A stretch of 62,350 bases of DNA from positions 1-62,350 of the forward strand of contig JANYBJ010000239.1 in the NCBI GenBank assembly GCA_025360845.1, read 5' to 3'. Within the stretch, counting starts at the first letter, position 1, and the number at the start of each line of letters is the position of its first letter. A program made the translations under genes and the position numbers. Below are positions 1-12,770 of this stretch, piece after piece. This stretch comes from a bacterium (GTDB taxonomy: Bacteria; Verrucomicrobiota; Kiritimatiellia; RFP12; UBA1067). The notes under the pieces are model-generated. The model saw nothing but the letters and a program-made list of their open reading frames with translations, did not search any database and was not told where the DNA came from.

Positions 1-1644
1 CACGCCGTTCACCGTGGCACCGCTGTTGTTGCCGAAATCGAGCAACTGAACGTAGTTCCTCCCTGCGGAAATCTTGGACGCACCGGCGGCTCCCGTGGAA
101 ACAACCGAGTCACTGTCCGCCACAGTCGTGATGTTCCCGGCGCCGGAAAGGCCGGCGATCGTCTGATTGGCGCCGCTCCAGATTTCCCACGTCGCACCGG
201 GAGCGATGGAGACCGTGCCGGGGCCCGTCGCATGGCTCGCGACCGACTTCAGGGTGCCGCCATTGATGATTGTGCCGCCGCTATAGGTGTTCGTCCCGAA
301 AAGCGTCTGCGTGCCAGGCCCCTTTTTGACCAAGGCGATATCGCCGTCGATCGAGCCCTCGAACCGGTGATTTTGGGCATCGCCGGTGGTGATGGCGGTG
401 AGCGTCGCACTGTAGATGCTGGCACTAGGGGACGCATCAGTGAGGTCTTCAAGGGTCGCCCCATACCAGTGAAAGGTGTTCCCGGCGTTCAGAGGGTACA
501 TCGCGATCGACGCCGTCGCGGCGGTGGCTTTGAACCTATAGGCGTAATACCCTAAGTGCCCCGGATCAGTGTCGTACATCGCCTGACTTTCCGCGCCGTT
601 GGTGAAAATCGCTTTTTCCTCACGCATGCCCCAGCCTGGATCACTGAAAATCACGGCTTCATAAATTCTTCCAACGGTGAGGTTGCTGAACGTAAGAACG
701 CCTGGGTTACCGTTGTAATAAAAATATTTCAAAAGAAGACCGTACCCACTGTCACCGCTGCTGCCGCCGCCGGCATGATCTAAAGTGACGCCGGTGAGCG
801 ACCATCCCACGCTGGCGGGCGCGGGTCCCGTTCCGGTGAGTCCCGCGGCGGTGAAGTAAACGCCGTTCACCATTGCAGCTTCGCCAGGATTATCGAAGTC
901 GAGCTTAAGGACATAGTTTTTGCTCGCGGAAATCTGGGCCGCGCCATCTGTTCCGGTGTAGACGGTGCCTCCGCTCTCGTTCCGAATCTGCCCCGTACCG
1001 TTAAGGCCGGCAACGGCCTGTCTGTCGGCTCCGAGCAGCCATGTGGTGCCGGAAGCGAGGCACAGCAGGCCAGAGCCGACCGCATCGACAGTCTTCGATC
1101 TCAAGGTCCCTCCGTTGAGATACGTTGCGCCGTTGTATTGACCGGACTGTGCCATCACGACCGTGCCGGCACCGTTGATGGTGACGCTGGCGCCCGAGAA
1201 GGTGTTGTCGTCCTGGTTGATCCGCCCGTTGAAAGTCAGCGTCTTGCCCGCCGCAACGACAAAGGTTTGGTTATTCCAAGCGTTCAAATCGGCGTTGAAA
1301 GTGAGGTTCGCTCCGATCACCGTGATGGGGGCTTCGTTCTTAGGCAATTTGATGCCCGAGATGGCGATGTCGGTGGCGCAACTGCCGTCCACGGTGAATG
1401 CGTTGTGCCCTTGGTAGCTGTTGTTATTAACGCTGCCGTTGACAATGCCGGAGCTGAAGAAAGCGCTGTTCCAGTTGCCCGCGACTAAGCCGGTCACCCA
1501 ATTGGCGGCATTCAACCAGTTGTTGTCCGTGCCGCCACCGGTCCATGTGCCATCCTGCTGCGCAAGGGCCGATCCGACGAAACCGGCTGTCAGCGCGACC
1601 GCCAGTGTGCATGTCCGAGTGATTCCTTGACTGCTTTGTTTCAT
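1..1644 (-). CDS. Autotransporter-associated beta-strand repeat surface protein; 3' end lies outside the window; paralog of 1671..4547
   Basis: Not in the ORF track because it has no stop in the window. Manual translation from ATG at 1644 (AAGGAG upstream) is open to base 1: MKQSSQGITRTCTLAVALTAGFVGSALAQQDGTWTGGGTDNNW..., with repeats LVKKGPGTQTLFGTNTYSGGTIINGGTL. Confidence 0.9.
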   Translation of the reverse strand, partial: MKQSSQGITRTCTLAVALTAGFVGSALAQQDGTWTGGGTDNNWLNAANWVTGLVAGNWNSAFFSSGIVNGSVNNNSYQGHNAFTVDGSCATDIAISGIKLPKNEAPITVIGANLTFNADLNAWNNQTFVVAAGKTLTFNGRINQDDNTFSGASVTINGAGTVVMAQSGQYNGATYLNGGTLRSKTVDAVGSGLLCLASGTTWLLGADRQAVAGLNGTGQIRNESGGTVYTGTDGAAQISASKNYVLKLDFDNPGEAAMVNGVYFTAAGLTGTGPAPASVGWSLTGVTLDHAGGGSSGDSGYGLLLKYFYYNGNPGVLTFSNLTVGRIYEAVIFSDPGWGMREEKAIFTNGAESQAMYDTDPGHLGYYAYRFKATAATASIAMYPLNAGNTFHWYGATLEDLTDASPSASIYSATLTAITTGDAQNHRFEGSIDGDIALVKKGPGTQTLFGTNTYSGGTIINGGTLKSVASHATGPGTVSIAPGATWEIWSGANQTIAGLSGAGNITTVADSDSVVSTGAAGASKISAGRNYVQLLDFGNNSGATVNGV

Positions 1645-1670: not shown

Positions 1671-4547
1671 CTACAAGAGTATAATCATCGTGCCGGAAAA
1701 CTTTCCGTTCAACACATTCAGCATACCTGTTCCGGTAAACCAGTTGGCATGCGGATACATGGCGCCGCTGCCGACTGCGCCGTGTGTTCCAGGTTGTTTT
1801 TCGTTTCCGTCGAAATACAGCCGGGAAACGGTTTGCGTCGTGCCCCCGAGGTCCAGCCAGGCGCCGAACGCGATCGACACCGTCGAGTTGGTAGACAGGC
1901 TGCCCCCGATTCCGCTGAGGGATGAGATGCCGTCAACGGCGGTGGCCGAATCGCCCCCTACCTTATCACCTGCAAAGGCCAGCGTGTGGGTTCCGGCATT
2001 GATTTTGGCGAACGCGGTAAACGTCTGGAACATCCCTTGCGAATTGAACGCGCTGGCCGGGAAGCTGCTGCTGATCACACCGTCAACCATGAGATTGAGG
2101 CCCGAGGCTGAAAAGCCCGGACGGTTGGCCGCCTTGAACGTCAGCTTGTACGTCCCTGAAGCCGCCACCGTGACCGCCTGCGAAATGACGCCGTAGTTCT
2201 GAATATAGGCGGCATAAGAGCCGTCAAGGGCAGCGCCGGTGGCCACCCAGGGCGTGCCAGGGGCGGCAATGCCGGAGGTCGTGTCGAACGTCCACGTCGC
2301 GCCGGTCGGATTGTAGCCCCAGGTCCCGTTGGCCAGGGCGTCGTGCGTCTCGAACGACGCGTTGTCAAGGGTGACCGTGCCCTCCGGCGGCGAAGGCAAC
2401 TCCAGTTTCAGCGTTCCGTCGTTGACGGTGGTGGAACCGGTGTACGCGACCGGCCCGGCGAGCGTTTGCGTGCCGCTTCCCTGCTTCACCAACGAGACGG
2501 CGCCGTTGATCGCGCCCTCGAACCGGCGGTTTTGGGCATCGCCGAGGGTGAGCGTCACGCCGTTGGTGAACAGGTTGACCGCGGCGGGCGGAAGCGCTTC
2601 CAGGCTGGCGGCGAACCAGTGGAACGAGTTCCCGGGGTTAATCGGGACCATGGTGACCGTCGCCGTTTCGGCTTTCGCCTCGAACTGATAAGAGTAATAC
2701 CCGACGGTCCCCGGATCGGTGTTGATCAGTTGGATGCTGTCAGGGCCATTGGCGAACGTCGCATTCTGCCAGCGGTAACCCCAGACGCCTATTTTGGTAT
2801 AGAGCACGATGTCGTAGCACTTGCCGATGGTGAGGTTGTAGAACGTGAGCACGCCGGGGTTGCCTCCATAGAGGAAGTCCGACATCAGTTGATCGTACCC
2901 GCTGCCGCCATCGGCGAAGTAGGGCGCGGTCGCTCCTCCGAGCAACCAGCCCGTGCCGCTGTTGTTGCTCACGTTGTCGAACGTCACTCCGTTCACCTCT
3001 GCGCCTGCGCCATTACCGAAGTCGAGCTTTTGGATGTAGTTCTTGCCGATGGAAATCTGGGCCGCCCCGTCAGCGCCGGTGGACACAGCGCCGCTGAACG
3101 CCTCAACCGTACCGGCGCCGGAAAGGCCGGCAACGGTCTGATGGGCGCCGTCCCAGATTTTCCACGTCGCACCGGAAGCGACGTCGACCGCGCCGGCGCC
3201 GACCGCGCCGGACGCGGTTGTCGTCAAGGTGCCGGCCTTGACCGCAGTGCCGCCGGCGTAGGGGTTCGCCGCGGCGAGCGTCTGCACACCGGAGCCCTGT
3301 TTGACCAGCGAGGTGTCGCCGTCGATCAGCCCCTCGAAGCGGTAGTCATTGGCATTGCCGACGGTCAGCGGAGGCGACAGTTCCAGCGTCGCCCCGTACC
3401 AGTGATACGTGGCCGCAGTGAGAGGGGCCATGGTGACCGTCACCGTAGGGTCGGTCGCCAGGAACGCGTACGCGTAATAGCCGTTGTCCCCCGGATTGGT
3501 GTTGAGCATCTGGTGGCTGTCCGAGCCGTTGGTGAAGGTCGCATTCTGCGGGCGATAGCCCCAGCCGGGACTCGAAAAAACCACGACCTCGTACGTCCTG
3601 CCGACAATGAGGCCGTTGAACGTGAGCGTGCCCGTGCCTCCGTAATAGAAGCCTGACAGCAGCCGTCCGTAACCTGTTTGGCCGGGATCTTCGTTGAAAA
3701 TATTCGCCGTGCCGGTCAGCGACCAGCCCGGACCGCTGGTGCCGACTCCGGAGAACTTAACTCCGTTGACGGTGGCGCCGCCGCCGCCGTTGGGTTCGAA
3801 GTCGAGGGCGTAGACATAGTTCTTGCTGGCGGAAATCTGGGTCGAACCGTCAGGACCGGTGGACAGTACTCCATTGCTGATGCGTGTCACGTGACCCGCA
3901 CCGGCCAGCCCGCCGACGGTCTGGCGGGCTGGGCTGCGATCCCATGTCGTGCCGGCGCCGACGGTCATCGGGCCGGGGCCGATCCCGTTGGCCGTAAGGG
4001 TCTTCAAGGTGCCGCCGTTGAGGATGGTTCCGCCTGTGTAGAGGCCGGCTCTCGTCATCACGACCGTTCCTTCACCGTTCATGGTGACGCTGGAACCGGT
4101 GGCGTTGCCTTCATCCTGGTTAATCCGCGCGTTGAAGGTCAGCGTCTTGCCGGCTGCCACGACAAACGTTTGAGGACTCCACGCGTTCAAATCCGTGTTG
4201 AACGTGAGATTCGCCCCTGTCACCGTGATGGGGGCTTCGTCCTTGGGAATTTTAATTCCGCCGATCGCGATGTCCATCGGGCAACTGGCGTCCACCGTGA
4301 TCGCACGGTGCCCTTGGTAGCTGTTGTTATTAACGCTGCCGTTGACAACGCCGGAGCTAAACAAAGCGCTGTTCCAGTTGCCCGCGACTACGCCGTCCAC
4401 CCAGTTGGCGGCATTCAACCAGTTGTTGTCCGTGCCGCCACCGGTCCATGTGCCATCCTGCTGCGCGAGGGCCGACCCGACGAAACCGGCTGTCAGCGCG
4501 ACCGCCAGTGTGCCTATCCGATTGATGCCTTGACCGATCTGTTTCAT
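1671..4547 (-). CDS. Secreted autotransporter-associated beta-strand repeat protein (958 aa) with no C-terminal beta-barrel
   Basis: Signal peptide ending SALA. Three passenger-associated repeats (GEGTVVMTRAGLYTGGTILNGGTL, LVKQGSGVQTLAAANPYAGGTAVKAGTL, LVKQGSGTQTLAGPVAYTGSTTVNDGTL). AAGGAG RBS upstream. Confidence 0.88.
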   Translation of the reverse strand: MKQIGQGINRIGTLAVALTAGFVGSALAQQDGTWTGGGTDNNWLNAANWVDGVVAGNWNSALFSSGVVNGSVNNNSYQGHRAITVDASCPMDIAIGGIKIPKDEAPITVTGANLTFNTDLNAWSPQTFVVAAGKTLTFNARINQDEGNATGSSVTMNGEGTVVMTRAGLYTGGTILNGGTLKTLTANGIGPGPMTVGAGTTWDRSPARQTVGGLAGAGHVTRISNGVLSTGPDGSTQISASKNYVYALDFEPNGGGGATVNGVKFSGVGTSGPGWSLTGTANIFNEDPGQTGYGRLLSGFYYGGTGTLTFNGLIVGRTYEVVVFSSPGWGYRPQNATFTNGSDSHQMLNTNPGDNGYYAYAFLATDPTVTVTMAPLTAATYHWYGATLELSPPLTVGNANDYRFEGLIDGDTSLVKQGSGVQTLAAANPYAGGTAVKAGTLTTTASGAVGAGAVDVASGATWKIWDGAHQTVAGLSGAGTVEAFSGAVSTGADGAAQISIGKNYIQKLDFGNGAGAEVNGVTFDNVSNNSGTGWLLGGATAPYFADGGSGYDQLMSDFLYGGNPGVLTFYNLTIGKCYDIVLYTKIGVWGYRWQNATFANGPDSIQLINTDPGTVGYYSYQFEAKAETATVTMVPINPGNSFHWFAASLEALPPAAVNLFTNGVTLTLGDAQNRRFEGAINGAVSLVKQGSGTQTLAGPVAYTGSTTVNDGTLKLELPSPPEGTVTLDNASFETHDALANGTWGYNPTGATWTFDTTSGIAAPGTPWVATGAALDGSYAAYIQNYGVISQAVTVAASGTYKLTFKAANRPGFSASGLNLMVDGVISSSFPASAFNSQGMFQTFTAFAKINAGTHTLAFAGDKVGGDSATAVDGISSLSGIGGSLSTNSTVSIAFGAWLDLGGTTQTVSRLYFDGNEKQPGTHGAVGSGAMYPHANWFTGTGMLNVLNGKFSGTMIILL

Positions 4548-4570
4548 ATGCAGACTCTCCTTGCAACGTG

Positions 4571-4576
4571 ATTATA
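4571..4576 (-). promoter_or_regulatory. Candidate -10 box (TATAAT) for the surface-protein genes
   Basis: ATTATA on + strand reads TATAAT on -, ~25 nt upstream of the 4547 ATG. No good -35 box. Confidence 0.45.
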
Positions 4577-4651
4577 CGCACTCCAAACAGGAAACACTCC
4601 TATCCATTTATTAACCACGACTATAACGCTATAGTCACTGAAAAGTCGATG

Positions 4652-4685
4652 CACTTTTTGACCAAACTTTTACACTTTTTGACCA
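4652..4685. repeat. Perfect 13-bp direct repeat CACTTTTTGACCA x2 with 21-bp period; candidate operator
   Basis: Copies at 4652-4664 and 4673-4685 in an AT-rich intergenic region. Confidence 0.75.
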
Positions 4686-4836
4686 GCATCTGACGGGAAT
4701 ATATAAATATTCTTATGTAGCGACGTTATCAGATCAATTATTATAGGGCACAAAAAAAGCAGATACTGCCTGATTTCCCCGGCAATATGACCAAAGTTTT
4801 GCCACGAACATCAGAGCATTATAAATGAACGGCCCC

Positions 4837-6024
4837 TCACCACGCCCGGCACAGCAACCCTTTGAGATAGAGCCCTTCGGGGAAGCACAGCCCTTCAGGG
4901 TGGTCCTCGGCCTGCTGCAGACGCGTGGTCACCTGAATGTCGCGCTTGGCGTCGACCGCCGCGTCCGCGACCACTTTGTGGAACAGCGCGGGCGTCATCA
5001 GCCCCGAGCACGAGAACGTCGCCAGCAGCCCTCCGGGCCGCAGCAGCTTGATGCCCAGCAGGTTGATGTCCTTGTAGCCGCGCGCGGCTTTCATGAGGCT
5101 GCCCTTGGACTCGGCGAACTTGGGCGGATCCAAGATCACCAGATCGAAGGAACGGCCCTCGTCACGAAACTTGCGCAGCACCTCGAAAACATTGCCTTGG
5201 ATGAAACTCGACTCTTCCACATGGCAGGTGTTCAGCCCGGTGTTGGTTTTGGCCAACTCCAGCGAAGGGGCCGACAAATCCACGTGGGTCACCGAAGCCG
5301 CGGCGGCGGCCACCGCCGCGATGCCGAAACCGCCCGTATAGGAAAAGGCGTTGAGCACGTCGCAACCGTTCGCATAGCGTTTGACCAGATTGCGGTTGTC
5401 GCGCTGGTCAAGGTAGAAGCCCGTCTTGTGGCCCTCGCGCACATCCACCAGATAGCGGCAGCCGTTCTCGACGATCTCGATCCGCTCCGGCGGAGGCTCG
5501 CCCGCCAGCACGCCGGTCACCGGCGGGAGTCCCTCGTGCTCGCGCACGTCCACGTCGGAGCGCTCGTACACGCCGCGGCAAGGCGAGAAGCACTGCAAGG
5601 CCGCCACGATCTCGCGTTTCCACCTCTCTGTCCCCGCCGCCGTGAACTGACAAACGATCCATTCGCCATACCTGTCCGCGACCAGCCCCGGGACGCCGTC
5701 CGCCTCGGCGTTCACCAGGCGGAACGCGTTGGTCGCGCCCTCGGCCAAAAACACTGCCCGAGCGCCGACCGCACGTCCGATCCGGTCCGCCACAAACCCC
5801 TCGTCCACGACCGCCGACGGATCGAACGTCCACATGCGGACACGGATCTGTGAGGTCGGCGAATAGGCCCCGTAACCCAGCACCGTGCCGTCGGACGACA
5901 GCACGCGCACGGAGTCGCCCTGGGCCGGCGTGCCGTCCACCTTGGCGACGGCTCCCGAAAAGATCCACGGGTGGCGCCGCAACACGGAAAAATCGCGCTT
6001 GGGATGCAGGATAAGATCAGTCAT
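4837..6024 (-). CDS. rlmI: 23S rRNA m5C1962 methyltransferase RlmI-like (class I SAM-dependent)
   Basis: PUA-type N-terminus HPWIFSGA, then HKTGFYLDQRDNR, LNAFSYTGGF, DPPKF and EGLYLKG. Start may be 6024 or 6030. Confidence 0.88.
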   Translation of the reverse strand: MTDLILHPKRDFSVLRRHPWIFSGAVAKVDGTPAQGDSVRVLSSDGTVLGYGAYSPTSQIRVRMWTFDPSAVVDEGFVADRIGRAVGARAVFLAEGATNAFRLVNAEADGVPGLVADRYGEWIVCQFTAAGTERWKREIVAALQCFSPCRGVYERSDVDVREHEGLPPVTGVLAGEPPPERIEIVENGCRYLVDVREGHKTGFYLDQRDNRNLVKRYANGCDVLNAFSYTGGFGIAAVAAAAASVTHVDLSAPSLELAKTNTGLNTCHVEESSFIQGNVFEVLRKFRDEGRSFDLVILDPPKFAESKGSLMKAARGYKDINLLGIKLLRPGGLLATFSCSGLMTPALFHKVVADAAVDAKRDIQVTTRLQQAEDHPEGLCFPEGLYLKGLLCRAW

Positions 6025-6095
6025 GCACATTATTTAACCACACTTCCCCCTGCCGCAAAAGCAGGAATGAACAACGTGCGACCCACGTTTTCCGT

Positions 6096-7349
6096 TCAGC
6101 GGCGCGTCGGCAGGACATCGGGGAACGGCTGGCGCGACCGGAACAGGCGGGTCGCCTCGCCGGTCAGCCACAGGTAGTGGTCGGACGGCAAGGTTCCGTA
6201 ACTCAGATAGGTGAAGCCATCACCCTTGGGCGGCGCGTTGTTGATCTTGAAGATCTGCGTGCCCTCGTCCACCTCGTCAAACATCGCCACATAGACGCAA
6301 CCAACACCCGCACGCTTGGCGGCCGCGAACTGCGACCACAGGAACACGCCGTCGCGGCGCGGGATGCCATTGCTCGCGCCCATCAAATTGCCCCAACTGA
6401 AGCCCGGAAAGACCACCGGCATGAAGGTCAGCCCGTTCTCGCGACACCACTCCGCATCCTCGCGCCAGACCGCCTCGGCACGCTGCACGCCCGCCTCGTC
6501 GCCGAACCGCCCGACGCTCCACGAGTGGATGATGTCGGCCTTGCGCAGGACCGCGTGCAGACGCTCGTCCGCCACCGTGTCGGTTTTCAGCGAGCGCCAA
6601 TAGAAAGGCACGCCCAACAGCACCGCATAGCCCTCTCCTTTGAAGAAATTGACCAGCCGTTCGCAGGCATCGAGCCCGTATTGGCGGTTGTCGTTGAACC
6701 CCATGCCCCAAAGCGCGATGATGGGCTTGCCTTTGTGACACTGCCACGCCACATCATTCGTTACGCACACCACGCCCGTTCCGACCAGATGCCGCCAGTC
6801 GGCCATCACCACCGCGTCGGCGTTGCTACCGAGGCCGGAGAGATCGTACAGCAGCGAATAGGAGCGCCCGCTCTCGGCCGCCGCCTCGCGGCAATAGCCC
6901 AGCACGCGGTCGCCCGAAGCGCGGAACGGCGCGGGCGCGAGGTCGCGGCCATAGAAGTCGGTCGGGAAGCGCTGCACGAACACGCCGTCGATCCCGTACT
7001 GCCGCATCCAGGCGAAGTGGCGGTTGACGGTGTTGCGGTTGTCGGAAGAGACGACCTCGGCGACGCCGCCATCCGCGCACGCCAGCGGCAGGCGGCAACG
7101 CTCCTCCGCTTTGACTTCGGAGACGTCGGGGAGGTAGTCGTTGACCGGCAGCCACGCGCCGCCGCGCTGGCGCAGGTAGTGGCGCCAGCCCGCCTTGGCC
7201 TGATCGTCGGGCGTGCGGAACCAGCCCTGATAGCCGCACAGCACACGCCCGTCGAGCGAGGGGTAAAGCGGAGGCGCCCCCGTCGCGGCCTGCGTTGCCG
7301 CAGTGCTGAAAACAAAGACGAGTGCTGCCCATATCGTTGTCTGAACCAT
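6096..7349 (-). CDS. Secreted glycoside hydrolase, GH71/99-like
   Basis: Signal peptide; motifs VLCGYQGWF, WMRQYGIDGVFVQRF, PVVFPGFSW.NL and YVAMFDEVDEGT. Confidence 0.75.
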   Translation of the reverse strand: MVQTTIWAALVFVFSTAATQAATGAPPLYPSLDGRVLCGYQGWFRTPDDQAKAGWRHYLRQRGGAWLPVNDYLPDVSEVKAEERCRLPLACADGGVAEVVSSDNRNTVNRHFAWMRQYGIDGVFVQRFPTDFYGRDLAPAPFRASGDRVLGYCREAAAESGRSYSLLYDLSGLGSNADAVVMADWRHLVGTGVVCVTNDVAWQCHKGKPIIALWGMGFNDNRQYGLDACERLVNFFKGEGYAVLLGVPFYWRSLKTDTVADERLHAVLRKADIIHSWSVGRFGDEAGVQRAEAVWREDAEWCRENGLTFMPVVFPGFSWGNLMGASNGIPRRDGVFLWSQFAAAKRAGVGCVYVAMFDEVDEGTQIFKINNAPPKGDGFTYLSYGTLPSDHYLWLTGEATRLFRSRQPFPDVLPTRR

Positions 7350-7552
7350 AGGTGACTTTCCCGCCTAACCGGCGTGTTACTTTCAGATACTTTAGCGGAT
7401 TTTCGTTACGAAGTCCGCCGGAATATAAATGAGGGCCGCCAGTCCCCCTTCAGTCAGGAAACAGGCGACCCCAAGGTCGTGATTGCGGAACAGACTCTGC
7501 CGCGAGGCAATATGATGGACTATCTGGTTATAAAAGGCCGTGCTCCCACGCT

Positions 7553-9577
7553 TCAGTAAACCTGAATCAACGTGCCCTTGTGGTCTTCCCACCCGTAGAG
7601 TTCGAGTTCCGTGATGTTGCCGTAGAAGTCGCCCGAATCCTTCGTCACGAAAATGTAGCGGAAGGCTTCCGAGCTGGTGGTCGACACCGTCGCGTAGACG
7701 CCAGCCACGCCGCCGCTGAAGGTGGCCAATGTCGTGTAAGGCGAGAGTGTCGCGCTGTTCGAGCCGCGCAATTCCGCGCCATTCGCGCGATATTCGAGTC
7801 CTGCGCGGGCACTGAACCTCACATGCCCGATGCAGTAGCGCTTGCCCAAGTCAACGCCGACCGAACTGTTACCAGGAGACACATCAGGGAAGGAGCTGAG
7901 GTCGCCGTCGAACATACGGTCGACTCCCAAGCCGAAATTGACAGTCCCGGCCGTGATCAGGCTCATGCCCGGCTTGACCGCAGTCCGATTGTCCCAACTC
8001 CGCTCAAGCCATTCGCAGCGGCGGTAGGAGACCGCATCCGAGAGCGGCCCCTCGCTGCCGTCACGGGAGTCGAGCGCGCACACTTTGTAGTAGTTCAGTT
8101 TGCCGACCTGTGCGCCGGTGTCGGTCCAGGTGCGACCGCTGACGCCGGACGCGACCGCGGTGTAAGGGCCGCCGGGGGAGGTGGCGCGATACACCCGGCC
8201 GACATCGAGGTTCAGCGAGGCGAACGTCCAGGTCAGGACAGGATAGTCATTTGTCAGGAGAGGATTGTAATTTGGAGAGAGCGCCGAGGTGATCGTCAGG
8301 CTGCTCGGAGCGAGCGGGGCTTCCGGAGCAAGGTCATACTCAAGTTCCCCTGCGTTGCCCCAGCCGCCAGGCGGCGAAACATAACGGACGTACCGGTAAG
8401 GTCCTACAGGAGATGCTAATGCGTATTCGGCCATGCCCGCGAAGCCGGGAGCCGAGGGAATGGTGTAAAGGGTGACGGCCCCGGTAAAGTCGGCGTTGTC
8501 TGCGGCTTCGAACCGTCCTCCGACCATACGCCCAGGCCCTCCATCCCAACCCTCCGGTATTCTTCGCGGCGTGTAACGGACGCCGGTGATGGTGCGTGGT
8601 GTGCCAAGGTCCAGCGCGGCCCAAGGCGCGTCGCCAGACCCTATGCCCCAATAGGTGTCAAGGAAAGTCTCGCAATCCGAATCGTACAACTTGTCGCTGG
8701 TGTACGGCGTATAACCCGACGCGCCAAAAGGTGTGCCGACTGCGGCGTTACGTGCGGAGGCCGTAAAGGTGTACCACTCCGAAGCGCCGACGTTGTTGAG
8801 CGCCCGCACGCGATACCTCGTGTCTGCGAGAAGCGTCTGCGTGTCGCGCCAGTTGGCGATGCCGGTGTTTTTGTAGAAGTCGGTCAAGAGCGTCGTGTAC
8901 TCGGACTCGTCCGACCGTTTGCGCTGAACCTCATACGCCAGCGCATCCGCCGCGACTGTCCAGAGCAGATTGGCATGCCAGTTCGGGCTTCCCGTGAACG
9001 TCATCACCGGTGTCGTCGGCGCACTGGCCAGGGGGTCGATGCCGTAGAACTCGACCTCTCCGGCATTCCCGCCATAAGAGCCCCAAGCCGTGGCGATAAA
9101 GCGCAGGTAGGTAAAGGCCCTGAGTGCGTTTGTCGTGGTTAGCGTGACGTCAATCCAGGTGGTGCCGTTCCAACCGGGAGGCGTCACATGCGAATAGAGT
9201 GTCACCGCGTCGCTGAAATCCGCCGTGTTCGCACCCTGGAAGAGCACACCGATGAAGCGGTCGGAAACCTGTCCGTCGGGTCGGCCGATGTAACGGATGC
9301 GGGTGACGATCTTGGGGGTCTGAAGCCCGTAGCCGGCCCAGGCGTTCTGATGGACCGGCCATGTGTCATTGAAGGTAGCCGTGTCCCCGTCAAAGGGTTT
9401 GTCAGGGTTGTGCGCGGCATCAAACCCCGGTGTGCCGAGTGCGACCAGCGCACCGGAGGCGTTGGTCACCGCAAACTGGGTCAGCTTCGTGGCTGTCCAG
9501 TTCTGTGCCCGGACCGCTGTGAACGGTATCAGGCTGAAACAGGCTGCCAGCGCAGCCATAATCCGATAGTTTCTCAT
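7553..9577 (-). CDS. Secreted multidomain protein with discoidin (F5/8 type C)-like and FN3-like modules
   Basis: Likely start MRNYRIMAALAACF at 9577 (the track extends to 9721). Repeated FDGD.....D...LDLG....RY..R....G..F.G.N pattern and FN3-type W...YEVQR / YYKV segments. Confidence 0.75.
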   Translation of the reverse strand: MRNYRIMAALAACFSLIPFTAVRAQNWTATKLTQFAVTNASGALVALGTPGFDAAHNPDKPFDGDTATFNDTWPVHQNAWAGYGLQTPKIVTRIRYIGRPDGQVSDRFIGVLFQGANTADFSDAVTLYSHVTPPGWNGTTWIDVTLTTTNALRAFTYLRFIATAWGSYGGNAGEVEFYGIDPLASAPTTPVMTFTGSPNWHANLLWTVAADALAYEVQRKRSDESEYTTLLTDFYKNTGIANWRDTQTLLADTRYRVRALNNVGASEWYTFTASARNAAVGTPFGASGYTPYTSDKLYDSDCETFLDTYWGIGSGDAPWAALDLGTPRTITGVRYTPRRIPEGWDGGPGRMVGGRFEAADNADFTGAVTLYTIPSAPGFAGMAEYALASPVGPYRYVRYVSPPGGWGNAGELEYDLAPEAPLAPSSLTITSALSPNYNPLLTNDYPVLTWTFASLNLDVGRVYRATSPGGPYTAVASGVSGRTWTDTGAQVGKLNYYKVCALDSRDGSEGPLSDAVSYRRCEWLERSWDNRTAVKPGMSLITAGTVNFGLGVDRMFDGDLSSFPDVSPGNSSVGVDLGKRYCIGHVRFSARAGLEYRANGAELRGSNSATLSPYTTLATFSGGVAGVYATVSTTSSEAFRYIFVTKDSGDFYGNITELELYGWEDHKGTLIQVY

Positions 9578-9647
9578 TTTTTGTTCCTTTTTTTCATAGG
9601 CAGTGCCCACACGGGCACTAACCAACAGGGTTCGCACGGAAGGCCGG

Positions 9648-12600
9648 TCACTTGGTGACGAAGCCCGCGTTACACCAGTCCGCATGGTCGCATTCAATCC
9701 CGTTTCCGGCATCGGTGACATGCAGCCTTAACCGCTTGACGCCCTCGGGAATGGCGACATCCACACCGACAGCCATTTCCGGAGACATCACGTCGGATTG
9801 GAACAGCAGGCTCTCGCCCGCAATCGCCTCCGCGGCGGCGGTTCCATCCCGGACATCGACGTAAACCTGAAAGACAACGCTGGGTTGCCTGTAATTCCGC
9901 ATGCAGTCGTCAACTCCGACGTACGCGACAAACCGTTTATAATCCGGTTTGACTTCGTAGACCAGGTCCGATGCCGCATGCACGCCCATGCCTTTTTGGA
10001 ACTTTGTCCCCAGCATCGAGAGCGGAGTCTTATTCCAAGCCAGATCGTTCTGGGCTATCGTGCCTGGAACGCCCACAGTCGCCTTGAGAGCCTTCAAATC
10101 CGAAAGATAAATATCGGGAAGCTGCGGGGCCGGCAAACCCGCACGGAAAGTGGCCGCCGACACGCCGCTTGCCTCACCGTTCAGGTAGACTCTGGCCCGG
10201 ACCATCCCCTGCTGGTTCAGTTTAAGCGGTTCTGAATAGCGGAGAGACGTTTCAGTCGGCACCGATCCGTCCAGCGTGTAACGCACCGTGGCGTTCGTCA
10301 TCCAGCCCGGCGCCCGGATCTCGACCGTCTTCTCGTTGAAGATCATGCCCTTGTCAGGGATGATGGCCGGGCTCGGCGGCAAGCACCTCACCCATTCGTT
10401 TTCAAACACGCCCTGCGGAATCAGCCGCCCTTCAGGGTCACACACCTTGAACTGAACATGCGCTGTTTCTTTCAATGACACCGGAGCCTTGAGTTCCTCG
10501 AAGTCCGTCCAAACGCCCTTTACTTTTTCTCGCTTGTAGATTTTGGCCGAGGTAAGCGCGCTCTCGACTTTCAGCGTCGCCTCTTTCAAAAAAGCTTTGG
10601 AGGCTGGCGACACCTTCGTATGGACGATGCGCACCATGGCGCAACCGTGTTTCAACGGCACGCTCACTTCCTCACCCGCTTTCAAAGGCTGCTCCCGCAG
10701 CGGCTTCCACTCGGCGTCCCCCACGTGAAGCGTCTCAACAAAACGAGCACCCTTCATCACGGTGTTTTGTGAGTTCACCGTAAGCCGGGCCTCCTGGTTT
10801 TGTCCCCCCAGCATGAGCGCAATGAGCAAGCCCCCGGGAACCTCGAAACAGTTGCCTTTCGCGCCCTTCACCTCGATCGGGAACGCCTCCAGATTCCACT
10901 TGCGGAACCGGAGGGCTTCAAACAGCAGACCGTAGTCGAGATACAACTGGTCTGCCTCGGCGTTCCCCGGCTTGATCGTATGATTGTTATAGGGCATCGG
11001 CGCGGTCATGTACGCGCCGAGGTAGAGATAACGCTGAAAGAAGTCGTGAAGGGGCACGTTTGAAGGAAGTCCCCAAGTCCAGCCCACATACGGCTTGTCC
11101 AGCGCCATGAAAGAACAAACCGAGATGCTGTGGCAATCCGACTGTCCGAACTCGTCATAAAAACCGTCGATGTTTTCGTAGAGATCCAAACGGCGATAGA
11201 GGGGATTACAGTAGATGACCTTCTCCTTCTCATGAAACAGGGGGCCGATCTTGCTCATGTATTCAACCCATCCCAAGGCCAGCGAGCCGCAGGCGGCACC
11301 CGTAACCCACGAGAGCCCGTCATCCCGTTTCCAGTTGAAGAAACGGAGATAATCGGTCCGGTCAAAGCAGACGCCGGAACTCTCCGGCAGGGCGTCCAGA
11401 TGCTTCTTGGCTTGTGCGATCAGATGGTTCTGAAAGGAGGGCACCCCGATATCCATGAGCACGCCCCGCTCCCACGCCCTGTACGGCTCGGCCTGGTCCT
11501 TCGGGAAAAGAACCGCGTCGCGCAGCTTATAAAAGACAAAGTCGTTGGCGTCTTTCCACAGGTCCTCGTCGCGGGCCGCCTTCCGCGCGGGAGGCGTCGC
11601 AAAGCTCTGGATCTTCAGGCCCAGCTCGGCCGGATTCATGTAGTTCATGACATGAAGGCCACACTCCCTCATCCTCTTGGAGTAGTTCGCCAGATTACGC
11701 AGTGACGTTGGATAAGGAGGAGCCTCCGCTCCCTCAAACCGGGCATTCGTCCACGCGTAGTCGAGATCGTTGGTGTAGGGAAGGAACATTCCCATGTAGA
11801 CATAGTCGTAGCTGGCCTTCCAGTTGAATTGCAGACCGGAGCGCAGCAGCTGATAGGCATCAACCTCCCCCTCGTATTCGGAGTAGGCCCCGTTTCCCGC
11901 GACTAGCCAGGTCGCGTCTGTTTTGGGCGAGAAAAATTGAACGTATCGCTTATGATACCAACCCAGCGCAGGCCTCCAGTCGGTGGCTTGCGAACGCAGG
12001 TACAGCACATATGAAAAGGGCTTCCCTTTTTCGATCCGGTGATTGAAGCGGTTGAACTGGACGGCGCCCGTCGGGTCCACCTGAGCAGACATGCTGATGA
12101 TCGTTCCCTCGAGCCCGTGGGCCACCATGACCGCCCGCTTCGTGTCGGCTTCACCCACCACGAAGAGGGGGACGGAAATCGCGTCACGCTGCTCGTGGGA
12201 CGTGCCGCCGAAATCAAATGTCCTCGAATTCAATTTGGCAAACTGGAGCGGGTCATCCCAGTAGTTGCGCCCGTCTCCGATGAGACTCTTAATCTCCGGA
12301 TCAGAAGCGGCCGTGCCCCAGGTGGTCCAGTAGACAGACGCTGGCGACGTGGGGATAACAACCTTGGACGAAACCTCGCAGGAGAACGGCGCTCCCGCGC
12401 CTTCGACCGTCACCTCCCAACGGATCGCGTCCCCCTCCACGGAAAAACGGTCTCTGACCGCGCAGGAATCTCCACCGCCTTCACGCTTCATCAGCCGCTT
12501 AAACTGCGCAACGCCTGCTTTTGAGAGATCAGACTCGACACCGCCAGCCGTCTTCAAGCCGGACAGGTCACTGAGCCCGGAAAATACGGACTGACCCGCG

Positions 12601-12770
12601 CCGGACTGAAAAGTCGCCTGCCCTTGGGCGTCCATTTGAAGGACCAGGTCGCCTGACCGCAGCGTCAGCGTTGCCACGGAGGCTTGCTTAACCGGTTCGG
12701 CGGCGCCCGCTGCGAAGAGCACGCCGAACAGGACCATCGTTATGACAGGTGAAAACCGCTTGATCATCAA
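9648..12770 (-). CDS. Secreted putative glycoside hydrolase with Fn3-associated and NPCBM/NEW2 C-terminal domains
   Basis: Signal peptide; VRYTLDGSVPTETS.RY (Fn3-associated); YLSDL...KGMGVHA.S.L.Y...F.A.VGVDD...DHADWCNA (NPCBM). The catalytic family was not recognised. Confidence 0.7.
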   Translation of the reverse strand: MMIKRFSPVITMVLFGVLFAAGAAEPVKQASVATLTLRSGDLVLQMDAQGQATFQSGAGQSVFSGLSDLSGLKTAGGVESDLSKAGVAQFKRLMKREGGGDSCAVRDRFSVEGDAIRWEVTVEGAGAPFSCEVSSKVVIPTSPASVYWTTWGTAASDPEIKSLIGDGRNYWDDPLQFAKLNSRTFDFGGTSHEQRDAISVPLFVVGEADTKRAVMVAHGLEGTIISMSAQVDPTGAVQFNRFNHRIEKGKPFSYVLYLRSQATDWRPALGWYHKRYVQFFSPKTDATWLVAGNGAYSEYEGEVDAYQLLRSGLQFNWKASYDYVYMGMFLPYTNDLDYAWTNARFEGAEAPPYPTSLRNLANYSKRMRECGLHVMNYMNPAELGLKIQSFATPPARKAARDEDLWKDANDFVFYKLRDAVLFPKDQAEPYRAWERGVLMDIGVPSFQNHLIAQAKKHLDALPESSGVCFDRTDYLRFFNWKRDDGLSWVTGAACGSLALGWVEYMSKIGPLFHEKEKVIYCNPLYRRLDLYENIDGFYDEFGQSDCHSISVCSFMALDKPYVGWTWGLPSNVPLHDFFQRYLYLGAYMTAPMPYNNHTIKPGNAEADQLYLDYGLLFEALRFRKWNLEAFPIEVKGAKGNCFEVPGGLLIALMLGGQNQEARLTVNSQNTVMKGARFVETLHVGDAEWKPLREQPLKAGEEVSVPLKHGCAMVRIVHTKVSPASKAFLKEATLKVESALTSAKIYKREKVKGVWTDFEELKAPVSLKETAHVQFKVCDPEGRLIPQGVFENEWVRCLPPSPAIIPDKGMIFNEKTVEIRAPGWMTNATVRYTLDGSVPTETSLRYSEPLKLNQQGMVRARVYLNGEASGVSAATFRAGLPAPQLPDIYLSDLKALKATVGVPGTIAQNDLAWNKTPLSMLGTKFQKGMGVHAASDLVYEVKPDYKRFVAYVGVDDCMRNYRQPSVVFQVYVDVRDGTAAAEAIAGESLLFQSDVMSPEMAVGVDVAIPEGVKRLRLHVTDAGNGIECDHADWCNAGFVTK

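What the first reader, a model, noticed from the sequence alone, without database searches (positions are those of the whole stretch)
1671..7576. Shared C-terminal G-T-hydrophobic tail on unrelated secreted proteins: candidate protein-sorting signal
Seen: the 958-aa beta-helix protein ends ...NGKFSGTMIILL* (1671-1694) and the unrelated discoidin/FN3 protein ends ...WEDHKGTLIQVY* (7553-7576). Both have signal peptides, and both end in G-T-[LM]-I-x-[LV]-x exactly at the stop, after the last folded domain. Established: Verrucomicrobial proteins with these passenger repeats often end in PEP-CTERM, and this one has neither PEP-CTERM nor an autotransporter barrel. Inference: the short terminal beta-strand is a lineage-specific export or anchoring signal. 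Only two examples are visible, and I cannot confirm whether it has been described.
Basis: partly seen in the sequence, partly recalled or inferred. Interest (0 to 1): 0.62.

Follow-up and report, generated by a model that had tools for sequence, protein, structure and literature searches.

The report
Seven-residue C-terminal tag, Kiritimatiellia exoproteins
About 55 otherwise unrelated exported proteins of this Kiritimatiellia bacterium end in the same seven residues (Gly-Thr, then a short hydrophobic strand), which sit where relatives in other bacteria carry known surface-sorting signals, so this is probably an undescribed, very short address or docking tag whose reading machinery is unknown.

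Summary
Both window proteins end in G-T-[LM]-I-x-[LV]-x-stop. In the whole 5.17-Mb genome, 36 genes fit the strict motif at the exact C-terminus, against 0.32 expected (P ~3e-60), and a profile finds 53. They have 31 non-homologous C-terminal contexts, and nearly all are large signal-peptide proteins in glycan-utilisation loci.

Information lies only in the last 7 residues, with Gly always at -7. Homologues keep the tail. Where homologues from other lineages share the same last module, they carry PEP-CTERM, an autotransporter barrel, a T9SS-type end or an 'FYR' domain at that position.

A DNA-pattern census of 301 genomes confines the Gly-Thr tail to part of the class Kiritimatiellia. Each lineage has its own flavour. 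AlphaFold2 leaves the tail unpacked and low-confidence next to a confident last domain.

Most likely it is a free C-terminal strand read by one shared envelope receptor, for outer-membrane passage or surface retention. I could not identify that receptor: there was no linked gene, no second Omp85, and no outer-membrane or pilus candidate that follows the tail's distribution.

It is not in Pfam or NCBIfam, and I found no paper describing it. Earlier notes of this scan report the same kind of tail in other Kiritimatiellia genomes.

The parts
1671..1694 (-). Stop codon plus the seven-residue tail GTMIILL of the 958-aa protein
   Evidence: translation. Profile score 18.7 bits, against at most 8.1 for non-members.
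1671..4547 (-). Cargo 1: 958-aa signal-peptide protein with PATR (autotransporter-associated beta-strand) repeats, a weak DUF642-like domain and the end-module '...WFTGTGMLNVL' before the tail
   Evidence: Homologues keep the tail or carry PEP-CTERM or an autotransporter barrel.
7553..7576 (-). Stop codon plus the seven-residue tail GTLIQVY of the discoidin/FN3 protein
   Evidence: Profile score 17.5 bits. G669 and T670 are invariant in a 15-sequence alignment.
7553..9580 (-). Cargo 2: 675-aa signal-peptide protein with three F5/8-type-C (discoidin) domains and FN3-like domains. The ORF runs upstream to 9721, but the signal peptide starts at the Met at 9580.
   Evidence: AlphaFold2 mean pLDDT is 90.7; the last domain strand ends at residue 665, and the tail residues 666-675 are coil, with pLDDT 53 for residues 671-675.
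1..1644 (-). N-terminal 548 aa of a paralogue of cargo 1. It is cut by the contig end, so its C-terminus is not visible.
   Evidence: 3'-open ORF, near-identical N-terminus.

Best explanation
The tail [P]-x-G-T-[LM]-[IL]-x-[LVI]-x-COOH is most likely a portable sorting or docking tag of part of the class Kiritimatiellia. It is unusually short and has no membrane-spanning segment.

Proposed course, with each step marked:
1. The cargo crosses the inner membrane by Sec. This is shown only by the signal peptides.
2. The cargo folds, and the last 7-10 residues stay exposed. This is supported by the AlphaFold2 model.
3. One shared envelope receptor per genome binds the tail as an added beta-strand and reads the fixed distance from Gly(-7) to the free carboxylate. 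This is inferred from the exact end register, the pattern T(-6)/hydrophobic(-4)/hydrophobic(-2) on one face, and the lineage-specific flavours.
4. Binding either hands the cargo to the outer-membrane export route or holds it on the cell surface. This is inferred because the tail stands where homologues carry PEP-CTERM, an autotransporter barrel, a T9SS-type C-terminal domain or the 'FYR' domain. The export route is probably one of the several secretin/type-II-like systems present.

The receptor is not identified.
For: 1. There are 36 strict (53 profile) members at the exact C-terminus against 0.32 expected, and essentially none at other offsets.
2. Information content lies only at positions -7 to -1 (13.8 bits), with a weak Pro at -9. 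The 53 carriers have 31 non-homologous C-terminal contexts: LamG-like, discoidin, PATR end-modules, SGNH-like and others.
3. Carriers are enriched in signal peptides and have a median length of 1043 aa.
4. Homologues keep the tail through domain gain and loss. The 675-aa window protein and its 1100-aa relatives, which carry extra PA14 and LamG-like domains, both end in G-T-x-x-x-x-x.
5. There is a natural swap. Of 90 representative proteins worldwide that share the last 110 aa of cargo 1, the strand '...F-x-G-x-G-x-L-x-V' is followed by the tail in 45 (plus about 10 degenerate forms) and by VPEP-helix-RRR (PEP-CTERM) in 14. Relatives of cargo 2 end in the tail in Kiritimatiellia MAGs, in an FYR/YFKL module in Pontiella and Verrucomicrobiae, and in T9SS-CTD-like ends in Bacteroidota.
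6. In the DNA-pattern census of 301 genomes of the phylum, the own genome scores 52 hits against 13 in the control and the same genus 94 against 14. Most of the family and three other families of the class are enriched. The roughly 200 genomes of other classes are not. The one apparent exception consists of terminator-like sequences.
7. Genomes of the class that are poor in the tail put PEP-CTERM on their PATR proteins. The own genome has only one PEP-CTERM protein.
8. The flavour is lineage-specific. F at -4 is 8/8 in G296 against 2/53 here (P = 2e-8), and R at -1 is 11/12 in G269 against 13/53 here (P = 3e-5).
9. AlphaFold2 places the tail outside the confidently folded last domain.
Against: 1. 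No receptor or enzyme was found. Neighbours of tail genes are regulators and sugar-catabolic genes, in this genome and in two distant tail-rich genomes.
2. The genome has a single Omp85.
3. Nine outer-membrane-protein-like candidates, the exosortase and a giant GspK-like pilus protein do not follow the tail's distribution.
4. There is no localisation, proteomic or genetic evidence.
5. AlphaFold2 shows coil, not a strand. The second model was too poor to use.
6. Part of the lineage flavour could reflect base composition: F and I are favoured in the AT-richer G296.
7. My gene calls and signal-peptide predictor are home-made.
Confidence: 0.55

Rival explanations
1. Pilus-tip docking. The tail works like the extreme C-terminal strand of the PilC/PilY1, MshQ and CpaL tip adhesins. 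It would complete the small beta-sheet of a PilK/GspK-type minor pilin, so that many different glycan-binding proteins are mounted on, or loaded onto, a type IV filament or type II pseudopilus.
For: Published mechanism: the last 6-10 residues of PilC/PilY1 are necessary and partly sufficient, and they dock by strand complementation (PMC12918778; PMC13711793). The tail here is likewise terminal, hydrophobic and about 7 aa long, on large Sec-exported adhesin-like proteins. The genome has at least three type-IV-filament loci and five secretin-like genes.
Against: None of 53 tail genes lies within 3 genes of a prepilin gene. The PilY-type W-R-E motif is absent. Fifty-odd tip proteins for a few filaments is unlike any known system. 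The giant GspK-like proteins that follow the pilin clusters have their own C-termini, and one of them occurs in 31 of 35 genomes of the class, including tail-poor and PEP-CTERM lineages.
Confidence: 0.12
2. Cleaved sorting signal. A periplasmic or outer-membrane peptidase or transpeptidase cuts at or near Gly-Thr, releases the 6-residue peptide and perhaps links the new C-terminus to a glycan or lipid. This would be a sortase/PorU-like reaction without a membrane helix. The tail may descend from a truncated PEP-CTERM (P-E-P-S/T-hydrophobic compared with P-x-G-T-hydrophobic).
For: Gly and Thr are the most conserved positions (2.8 bits each). The tail begins where VPEP begins in homologues. Some tails look like shortened PEP-CTERM, for example 'VPVPEATLMMLK'. 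An exosortase/EpsI gene is kept although only one classical PEP-CTERM protein was found.
Against: Every known sortase-type signal needs a transmembrane helix and a basic cluster to hold the substrate at the enzyme, and both are absent here. The exosortase is present in 34 of 35 genomes of the class whether or not they are rich in the tail, so it gives no specific association. No candidate enzyme is linked to cargo genes.
Confidence: 0.12
3. Beta-signal mimic. The tail (G-x-x-hydrophobic-x-hydrophobic plus one residue) imitates the outer-membrane-protein beta-signal. It would be bound by BamA/BamD or by a partner barrel, which then passes or anchors the barrel-less passenger.
For: The core G(-7)-x-x-hydrophobic(-4)-x-hydrophobic(-2) matches the polar-x-G-x-x-hydrophobic-x-hydrophobic beta-signal shifted by one residue (established knowledge). 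Species-specific C-terminal motifs read by Omp85 are known (title and abstract of PMC1634882 as listed; not read in full). In homologues an autotransporter barrel occupies the same place.
Against: The genome's own barrel proteins end in the classical ...x-F signal, with an aromatic last residue, for example WEINARF and GLSFRF. The last residue of the tail is variable (R, Q, F, L, K). Six residues cannot span the outer membrane. There is only one Omp85 gene. None of the nine barrel-like candidates tested tracks the tail.
Confidence: 0.1
4. C-terminal processing or quality-control tag. The tail is a propeptide or degron read by a PDZ-domain protease (Ctp/Prc or HtrA type) in the periplasm.
For: PDZ domains read free C-termini as an added strand, and C-terminal processing peptidases remove short extensions (established knowledge). 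The exact end register fits this.
Against: PDZ ligands need a hydrophobic last residue, whereas here the last residue is the least constrained and is often Arg, Lys or Gln. This reading does not explain the swap with PEP-CTERM, T9SS or autotransporter signals. Not tested further.
Confidence: 0.06
5. No external reader. The tail is an edge strand of each cargo's own last domain, or an aggregation-prone 'velcro' that makes the exoproteins stick to each other.
For: The sequence T-L-I-I-L-L is strongly beta-prone and aggregation-prone, and it is flanked by Pro, Lys and Gly and by a terminal Arg, Lys or Gln, like gatekeeper residues. A weakly hydrophobic stretch at -13/-14 could pair with it.
Against: The same 7 residues follow 31 unrelated folds. 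AlphaFold2 does not pack the tail on the discoidin domain. The near-invariant Gly-Thr and the fixed register argue for specific recognition.
Confidence: 0.05

Closest known systems
PEP-CTERM / exosortase sorting signal (TIGR02595; Haft et al.)
   Same: It sits at the extreme C-terminus of many unrelated Sec-exported proteins in one genome. It occupies exactly the same position after the same last module in homologues. It has a Pro-rich lead-in, then a small residue, then hydrophobic residues, and often a basic end.
   Different: There is no PEP motif, no roughly 20-residue helix and no Arg cluster: only 7 residues in all. The exosortase is present throughout the class regardless of the tail.
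Extreme C-terminal beta-strand of PilC/PilY1, MshQ and CpaL tip adhesins (PMC12918778; PMC13711793)
   Same: It is a short (6-10 aa) hydrophobic peptide at the very end of a large exported adhesin, read through strand complementation. This is the only well-supported precedent for so short a C-terminal docking element.
   Different: That system has one to three adhesins per pilus, encoded beside the minor pilins, with a W-R-E-hydrophobic motif. Here about 55 cargos are scattered in sugar-utilisation loci, none next to pilin genes, and the motif is G-T-hydrophobic.
Outer-membrane-protein beta-signal read by BamA/BamD
   Same: It has a G-x-x-hydrophobic-x-hydrophobic core near a free C-terminus, and such signals show lineage-specific flavour.
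   Different: The register is shifted by one residue and the last residue is not aromatic. The tail is not part of a barrel. The genome's own barrel proteins use the classical ...x-F ending.
T9SS C-terminal domain (Por_Secre_tail, TIGR04183/PF18962) of Bacteroidota
   Same: It marks dozens of glycan-active surface proteins. Bacteroidota homologues of cargo 2 carry T9SS-CTD-like ends where this lineage has the tail. The last strand is of the type T-x-K-hydrophobic-hydrophobic-K-x.
   Different: The CTD is a folded domain of 70-100 aa that is cleaved by PorU. Here only 7 residues are conserved. By established knowledge T9SS is a Bacteroidota-group system.

Membership tests
PEP-CTERM / exosortase | Pro-Glu-Pro motif | tested here: not met
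   Position counts of the 53 tails give P at -9 in 18 and G at -7 in 49, with no PEP. A regular-expression search for PEP-CTERM finds one other protein in the genome.
PEP-CTERM / exosortase | Transmembrane helix followed by a basic cluster | tested here: not met
   Only 6 residues follow the Gly. The last residue is R or K in 18 of 53.
PEP-CTERM / exosortase | Exosortase gene whose presence goes with the signal | tested here: inconclusive
   An exosortase/EpsI gene is present (C252:18724-20400). The family occurs in 34 of 35 genomes of the class, both tail-rich and PEP-CTERM-rich.
T9SS C-terminal domain | Folded 70-100-aa beta-sandwich shared by the cargos | tested here: not met
   There are 31 non-homologous contexts upstream of the tail. 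Information lies only at -7 to -1. There are no Pfam or NCBIfam hits.
T9SS C-terminal domain | T9SS machinery (SprA/Sov and others) in the genome | tested here: inconclusive
   SprA_N gave no hit, but it also gave none in the control genomes.
Type V autotransporter | C-terminal beta-barrel (PF03797) | tested here: not met
   Pfam finds PATR repeats only. The Brucella homologues have the barrel.
OMP beta-signal / BAM substrate | Aromatic C-terminal residue that closes a beta-barrel | tested here: not met
   The last residue counts are R13, Q10, F10, L6, K5. The last domains are LamG-like, discoidin and similar. The genome's own barrel proteins end in ...x-F.
PilC/PilY1-type tip-adhesin tail | Short hydrophobic peptide at the extreme C-terminus | tested here: met
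PilC/PilY1-type tip-adhesin tail | Gene in or next to a minor-pilin operon, and a W-R-E lead-in | tested here: not met
   None of 53 tail genes is near a prepilin gene. The lead-in is P-x-G-T.
PilC/PilY1-type tip-adhesin tail | Strand insertion into a PilK/GspK-type minor pilin | not testable with these tools
   Only single-chain prediction was available.
PDZ / C-terminal processing peptidase ligand | Hydrophobic last residue and hydrophobic residue at P-2 | tested here: not met
   The conserved face is -6/-4/-2, and the last residue is variable and often charged.

The most novel reading that the evidence does not exclude
The tail defines a so far unrecognised protein-sorting or surface-display route of Kiritimatiellia. 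In part of the class it has replaced PEP-CTERM on the bulk of surface proteins. A 7-residue tag without a membrane helix would be read through its free C-terminus by a single co-evolving envelope receptor, which has no obvious homologue among known sorting enzymes. That receptor would take folded giant adhesins and glycan-active proteins across the outer membrane or fix them on it. If the receptor belongs to a type II secretion system, this would be the first linear secretion signal for that system.
Probability: 0.3. Interest if true: 0.85.

Novelty: new variant of a known kind. Interest (0 to 1): 0.7.

Why it matters
How diderm bacteria outside the Proteobacteria and Bacteroidota bring huge adhesins and polysaccharide-active proteins to their surface is largely unknown. 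Kiritimatiellia are major degraders of sulfated and complex glycans in guts, sediments and the sea. A seven-residue tag that marks about 1.5% of a proteome would have several uses. It gives a direct handle on that route, through peptide pull-downs, tail swaps and reporter fusions. It provides a simple rule for predicting the surface proteome of a whole class from sequence. It is a possible minimal display tag for engineering. The natural swap with PEP-CTERM on the same end-module also offers a way to ask what PEP-CTERM itself does.

Tried and rejected
1. Repeated DNA element, read-through or frameshift. Rejected: all three stop codons are used, synonymous sites vary, and nothing is conserved or open downstream.
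2. A larger shared C-terminal domain, like the FN3-like/'FYR' tails noted elsewhere in the scan. Rejected: no similarity beyond about 10 residues. The genome does have about 30 proteins with that other domain, never combined with the tail.
3. A partner gene next to the cargo genes. None found in the own genome or in the distant tail-rich genomes G269 and G296. Only AraC/LacI-type regulators, UroD-like genes, Gfo/Idh/MocA oxidoreductases and glycoside hydrolases recur.
4. A dedicated Omp85 paralogue. Only one Omp85 gene is present.
5. Nine barrel-like candidates searched as one concatenated 2949-aa query over 25 genomes. None follows the tail.
6. Short versus long exosortase as a marker. This turned out to be the same exosortase+EpsI pair, fused or split, and it does not discriminate.
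7. The giant GspK-like protein. It is present almost everywhere in the class.
8. Adjacency to prepilin genes: 0 of 53.
9. SprA_N search for T9SS. Uninformative, because the controls were silent.
10. The second AlphaFold2 model, of the last 319 aa of cargo 1. Too poor to use: pLDDT 65.8, and the last 40 residues below 45.
11. The first alignment was too divergent for the genome-contig scan, so a closer one was used.
12. An apparent pattern excess in one genome of another class (G276). It consists of terminator-like GGAACGCTTTTTT sequences.
13. Literature. No paper in the held library mentions both Kiritimatiell* and PEP-CTERM. Searches for a sorting signal or secretome of this group found nothing relevant.
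Full report
THE OBSERVATION

The window is contig C186 of a 5.17-Mb, 61.7% G+C draft genome with 326 contigs, estimated 92% complete. On the minus strand, 1671-4547 encodes a 958-aa protein ending ...NGKFSGTMIILL. The ORF 7553-9721 encodes a discoidin/FN3 protein ending ...WEDHKGTLIQVY. Its signal peptide begins at the Met at 9580, which gives 675 aa. Both proteins start with a typical signal peptide. Pfam and NCBIfam recognise only PATR/TIGR02601 repeats and a weak DUF642 in the first protein, and F5/8-type-C domains in the second. They match nothing at the C-termini.

IS IT MORE THAN CHANCE?

I laid the whole genome in the Python box and called genes with a simple codon-usage model, which gave 3397 genes covering 85% of the DNA. 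The pattern GT[LMVFI][ILVM]x[ILVFM]x ends 36 genes. Its internal frequency (135 hits in 1.43 million positions) predicts 0.32. Shifted 1-11 residues from the end, it occurs 0, 0, 0, 1, 0, 0... times. Poisson P is 3e-60.

An iterated 12-residue profile converges on 53 members, which score 11.8-27.6 bits. The next best score is 8.1, and several of those near-misses are obvious degenerate tails. The consensus is [P]-x-G-T-[LM]-[IL]-x-[LVI]-[R/Q/F/L/K]-COOH. Gly is at -7 in 49 of 53 and Thr at -6 in 44 of 53. Information content is confined to positions -7 to -1 (13.8 bits), plus a weak Pro at -9 and a weakly hydrophobic -13/-14.

TAA, TAG and TGA are all used. Gly and Thr codons vary synonymously. 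The downstream DNA is unrelated and not open. The conservation is therefore at the protein level and the C-terminus is genuine.

WHO CARRIES IT

The carriers are large, with a median of 1043 aa against 337 for all genes. A crude signal-peptide predictor is positive for 28 of the 39 strict members, against 31% genome-wide (odds ratio 5.9, P = 1e-7). Three more have clear signal peptides by eye. The remainder are cut by contig ends or have uncertain starts, and none looks cytoplasmic.

With the tail removed, the 53 proteins fall into 15 homology groups. The stretch just before the tail falls into 31 groups without detectable similarity to one another: PATR end-modules of two kinds, LamG-like domains, discoidin domains, SGNH-like domains and others.

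The genes lie in sugar-utilisation-type neighbourhoods. The families that recur within four genes are AraC/LacI-type regulators (next to 16 tail genes), UroD-like proteins, Gfo/Idh/MocA oxidoreductases, fucosidase-like proteins and other glycoside hydrolases. The same families recur next to tail genes in two distant tail-rich genomes. No membrane or outer-membrane protein recurs.

HOMOLOGUES AND THE NATURAL SWAP

In the 5.8-billion-protein collection, the relatives of both window proteins that carry a taxon name are labelled Kiritimatiellae or Kiritimatiellaeota. Most keep G-[T/S]-hydrophobic-hydrophobic-x-hydrophobic-x with Gly at -7. More distant relatives have G-hydrophobic-x-hydrophobic-x-hydrophobic-[R/K/Q].

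The 675-aa window protein and its 1100-aa relatives, which have additional PA14 and LamG-like domains, align end to end at the tail. G669 and T670 are invariant. The tag therefore survives domain gain and loss.

Relatives from other lineages carry something else in the same place:
- PEP-CTERM in proteins labelled Burkholderiales and in several unlabelled ones.
- An autotransporter barrel in Brucella.
- An '...FYRL...' module.

The sharpest test was a phmmer search of 1.84 billion representatives with the last 110 residues of cargo 1. It gave 90 hits. The shared last strand '...F-x-G-x-G-x-L-x-V' is followed by the tail in 45 (plus about 10 degenerate forms) and directly by VPEP-helix-RRR in 14.

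For cargo 2, loci from named genome records show the tail in Kiritimatiellia MAGs (GTILLLQ, GTLLRVK, GSILLLK, GTVLMVR...). They show a YFKL/FYR module in Pontiella, Pontiellaceae and Verrucomicrobiae, T9SS-CTD-like ends in Bacteroidota (Niastella, Terrimonas, Arcicella), and nothing in Paenibacillus.

DISTRIBUTION

The back-translated pattern GGNACNNTNNTNNNNNTNNNNTRR separates signal from noise well in the own genome, with 52 hits against about 10 for control codons. I ran it over 301 genomes of the phylum, using the tool's reversed-pattern control. Hits against control were:
- Own genome: 52 against 13.
- Same genus: 94 against 14.
- Most of the family: for example 59/5, 43/1, 38/5 and 88/33.
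- A second family of the order: 57/7.
- Members of three other families of the class: 39/8, 49/9, and 21/15. The last is an AT-rich genome, and I confirmed its tails by eye.

A large family of about 2.2-Mb genomes in the same order and most other families of the class show no Gly-Thr excess. None of the roughly 200 genomes from other classes does either. The single apparent exception (21/6) consists of terminator-like GGAACGCTTTTTT sequences.

In the Gly-Thr-poor genomes of the class that I sampled, PATR proteins end in PEP-CTERM (five genomes) or an FYR module. Two same-order genomes show variant or rare tails, PGMIFTIF and RGTVILLR. The own genome has a single PEP-CTERM protein. It also has about 30 proteins with the ~70-aa FYR-type module, never combined with the tail.

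Each tail-rich lineage has its own flavour:
- This genome: G-T-[LM]-I-x-[LVI]-x.
- G269: G-T-V-x-x-[IV]-R. R is at -1 in 11/12 against 13/53 here (P = 3e-5).
- G296: G-T-I-F-x-L-x. F is at -4 in 8/8 against 2/53 here (P = 2e-8).

Uniformity within a genome combined with drift between lineages is what a single co-evolving reader would produce. Base composition may contribute to it as well.

STRUCTURE

AlphaFold2 with a 47-sequence alignment gives a confident model of cargo 2 (mean pLDDT 90.7). The last discoidin strand ends at residue 665. Residues 666-675 are coil, with pLDDT 53 for residues 671-675, although this is the best-conserved stretch of the alignment. The tail is thus not part of the cargo's own fold. 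A second model, of the end of cargo 1, was too poor to use.

All results were negative or non-discriminating.
- The genome has one Omp85 gene. Its barrel proteins end in the classical ...x-F signal.
- It has secretin, PilM-like, T2SS-E/F and pseudopilin genes in at least three loci, and five secretin-like genes in all. A type-II-like route is therefore available.
- No tail gene lies near a prepilin gene.
- A giant GspK-like protein that follows one pilin cluster occurs in 31 of 35 genomes of the class, whatever their tail status.
- Exosortase/EpsI occurs in 34 of 35. It is fused in this family and split elsewhere.
- Nine barrel-like candidates, searched together, are either universal or genus-specific.

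WHAT IT MOST LIKELY IS

The fixed distance to the free carboxylate, the one-sided hydrophobic pattern, the unpacked state, the portability across 31 contexts, the swap with four kinds of established C-terminal export or anchoring signals, and the lineage-specific flavour all point the same way. The tail is probably a short docking or sorting tag, read as an added strand by one shared envelope component. It would serve outer-membrane passage or surface retention of glycan-binding and glycan-degrading proteins (confidence 0.55).

The closest experimentally supported precedent for so short a C-terminal element is the terminal strand of the PilC/PilY1 tip adhesins, which completes a minor pilin (PMC12918778, PMC13711793). 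The gene context and motif here do not fit membership of that family. A cleaved, sortase-like signal, a beta-signal mimic, a PDZ or processing tag, and a purely intramolecular or aggregative role remain as rivals.

NOVELTY

There is no Pfam or NCBIfam model. I found no paper in the held library describing it. Earlier AI notes of this scan describe the same kind of tail in other Kiritimatiellia windows. I treat these as leads, not as evidence.

- the whole-genome statistics;
- the 301-genome census;
- the quantified swap with PEP-CTERM on one end-module;
- the lineage flavours;
- the structure model;
- the negative tests of Omp85, barrel, exosortase and pilus candidates.

Noticed in passing
L002:13365-14288 (G000 C298:57365-58288); also C298:34716-40358 and C310:26949-33704: A second class of C-terminal ending. 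About 30 signal-peptide proteins of this genome end in a ~70-aa module closing with [F/Y][F/Y]R[LVI]xxx(P). It is never combined with the Gly-Thr tail. One such 2251-aa protein directly follows a secretin gene on C310. Earlier notes of the scan describe this module in Verrucomicrobia.
   Followed up: partly
L002:9297-12182 and L003:13520-17425: Each of two pseudopilin clusters is followed by a giant protein (961 and 1301 aa). Both have a GspK-like hydrophobic N-terminus and no Pfam match. The 961-aa one has relatives in 31 of 35 genomes of the class. They may be tip proteins of the CpaL/TadG kind.
   Followed up: partly
L002:15165-15656 and L002:15753-19067: The only PEP-CTERM protein found in the genome (163 aa) is followed by a 1104-aa TMEM260-like (protein O-mannosyltransferase-like) membrane protein with TPR repeats. 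By eye its N-terminus resembles that of a 1125-aa protein (C252:7133-10510) that lies near the exosortase gene.
   Followed up: no
G000 C252:18724-20400 (L004): Exosortase and an EpsI-like domain are fused into one 558-aa protein in this family. In most other families of the class they are two adjacent genes. The gene sits in a polysaccharide-synthesis cluster.
   Followed up: partly
window 9648-12770 (-): A 1040-aa signal-peptide protein has two paralogues (C174:29224-32352 and C174:32380-35520). The window protein and at least one of these lie within four genes of tail-bearing genes. Its function was not examined.
   Followed up: no
L001 (G000 C257:2831-5335): The single BamA ends ...FSFAIGFE, one residue beyond the usual terminal Phe. 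Like the tail, it therefore has a hydrophobic residue at -2 followed by one extra residue.
   Followed up: no
G000 C49:42740-46261, C233:7554-9935, C275:18440-20074, C69:7094-7930: Four tails have Cys at -3 (GTMICIF, GTLICIF twice, GTLMCVQ). The significance is unknown.
   Followed up: no
G000, all genes: The last residue of predicted signal-peptide proteins is Lys in 19% and Pro in 12%, against 10% and 7% in the other proteins. The Pro excess is probably due to the FYR module. The Lys excess is unexplained.
   Followed up: no
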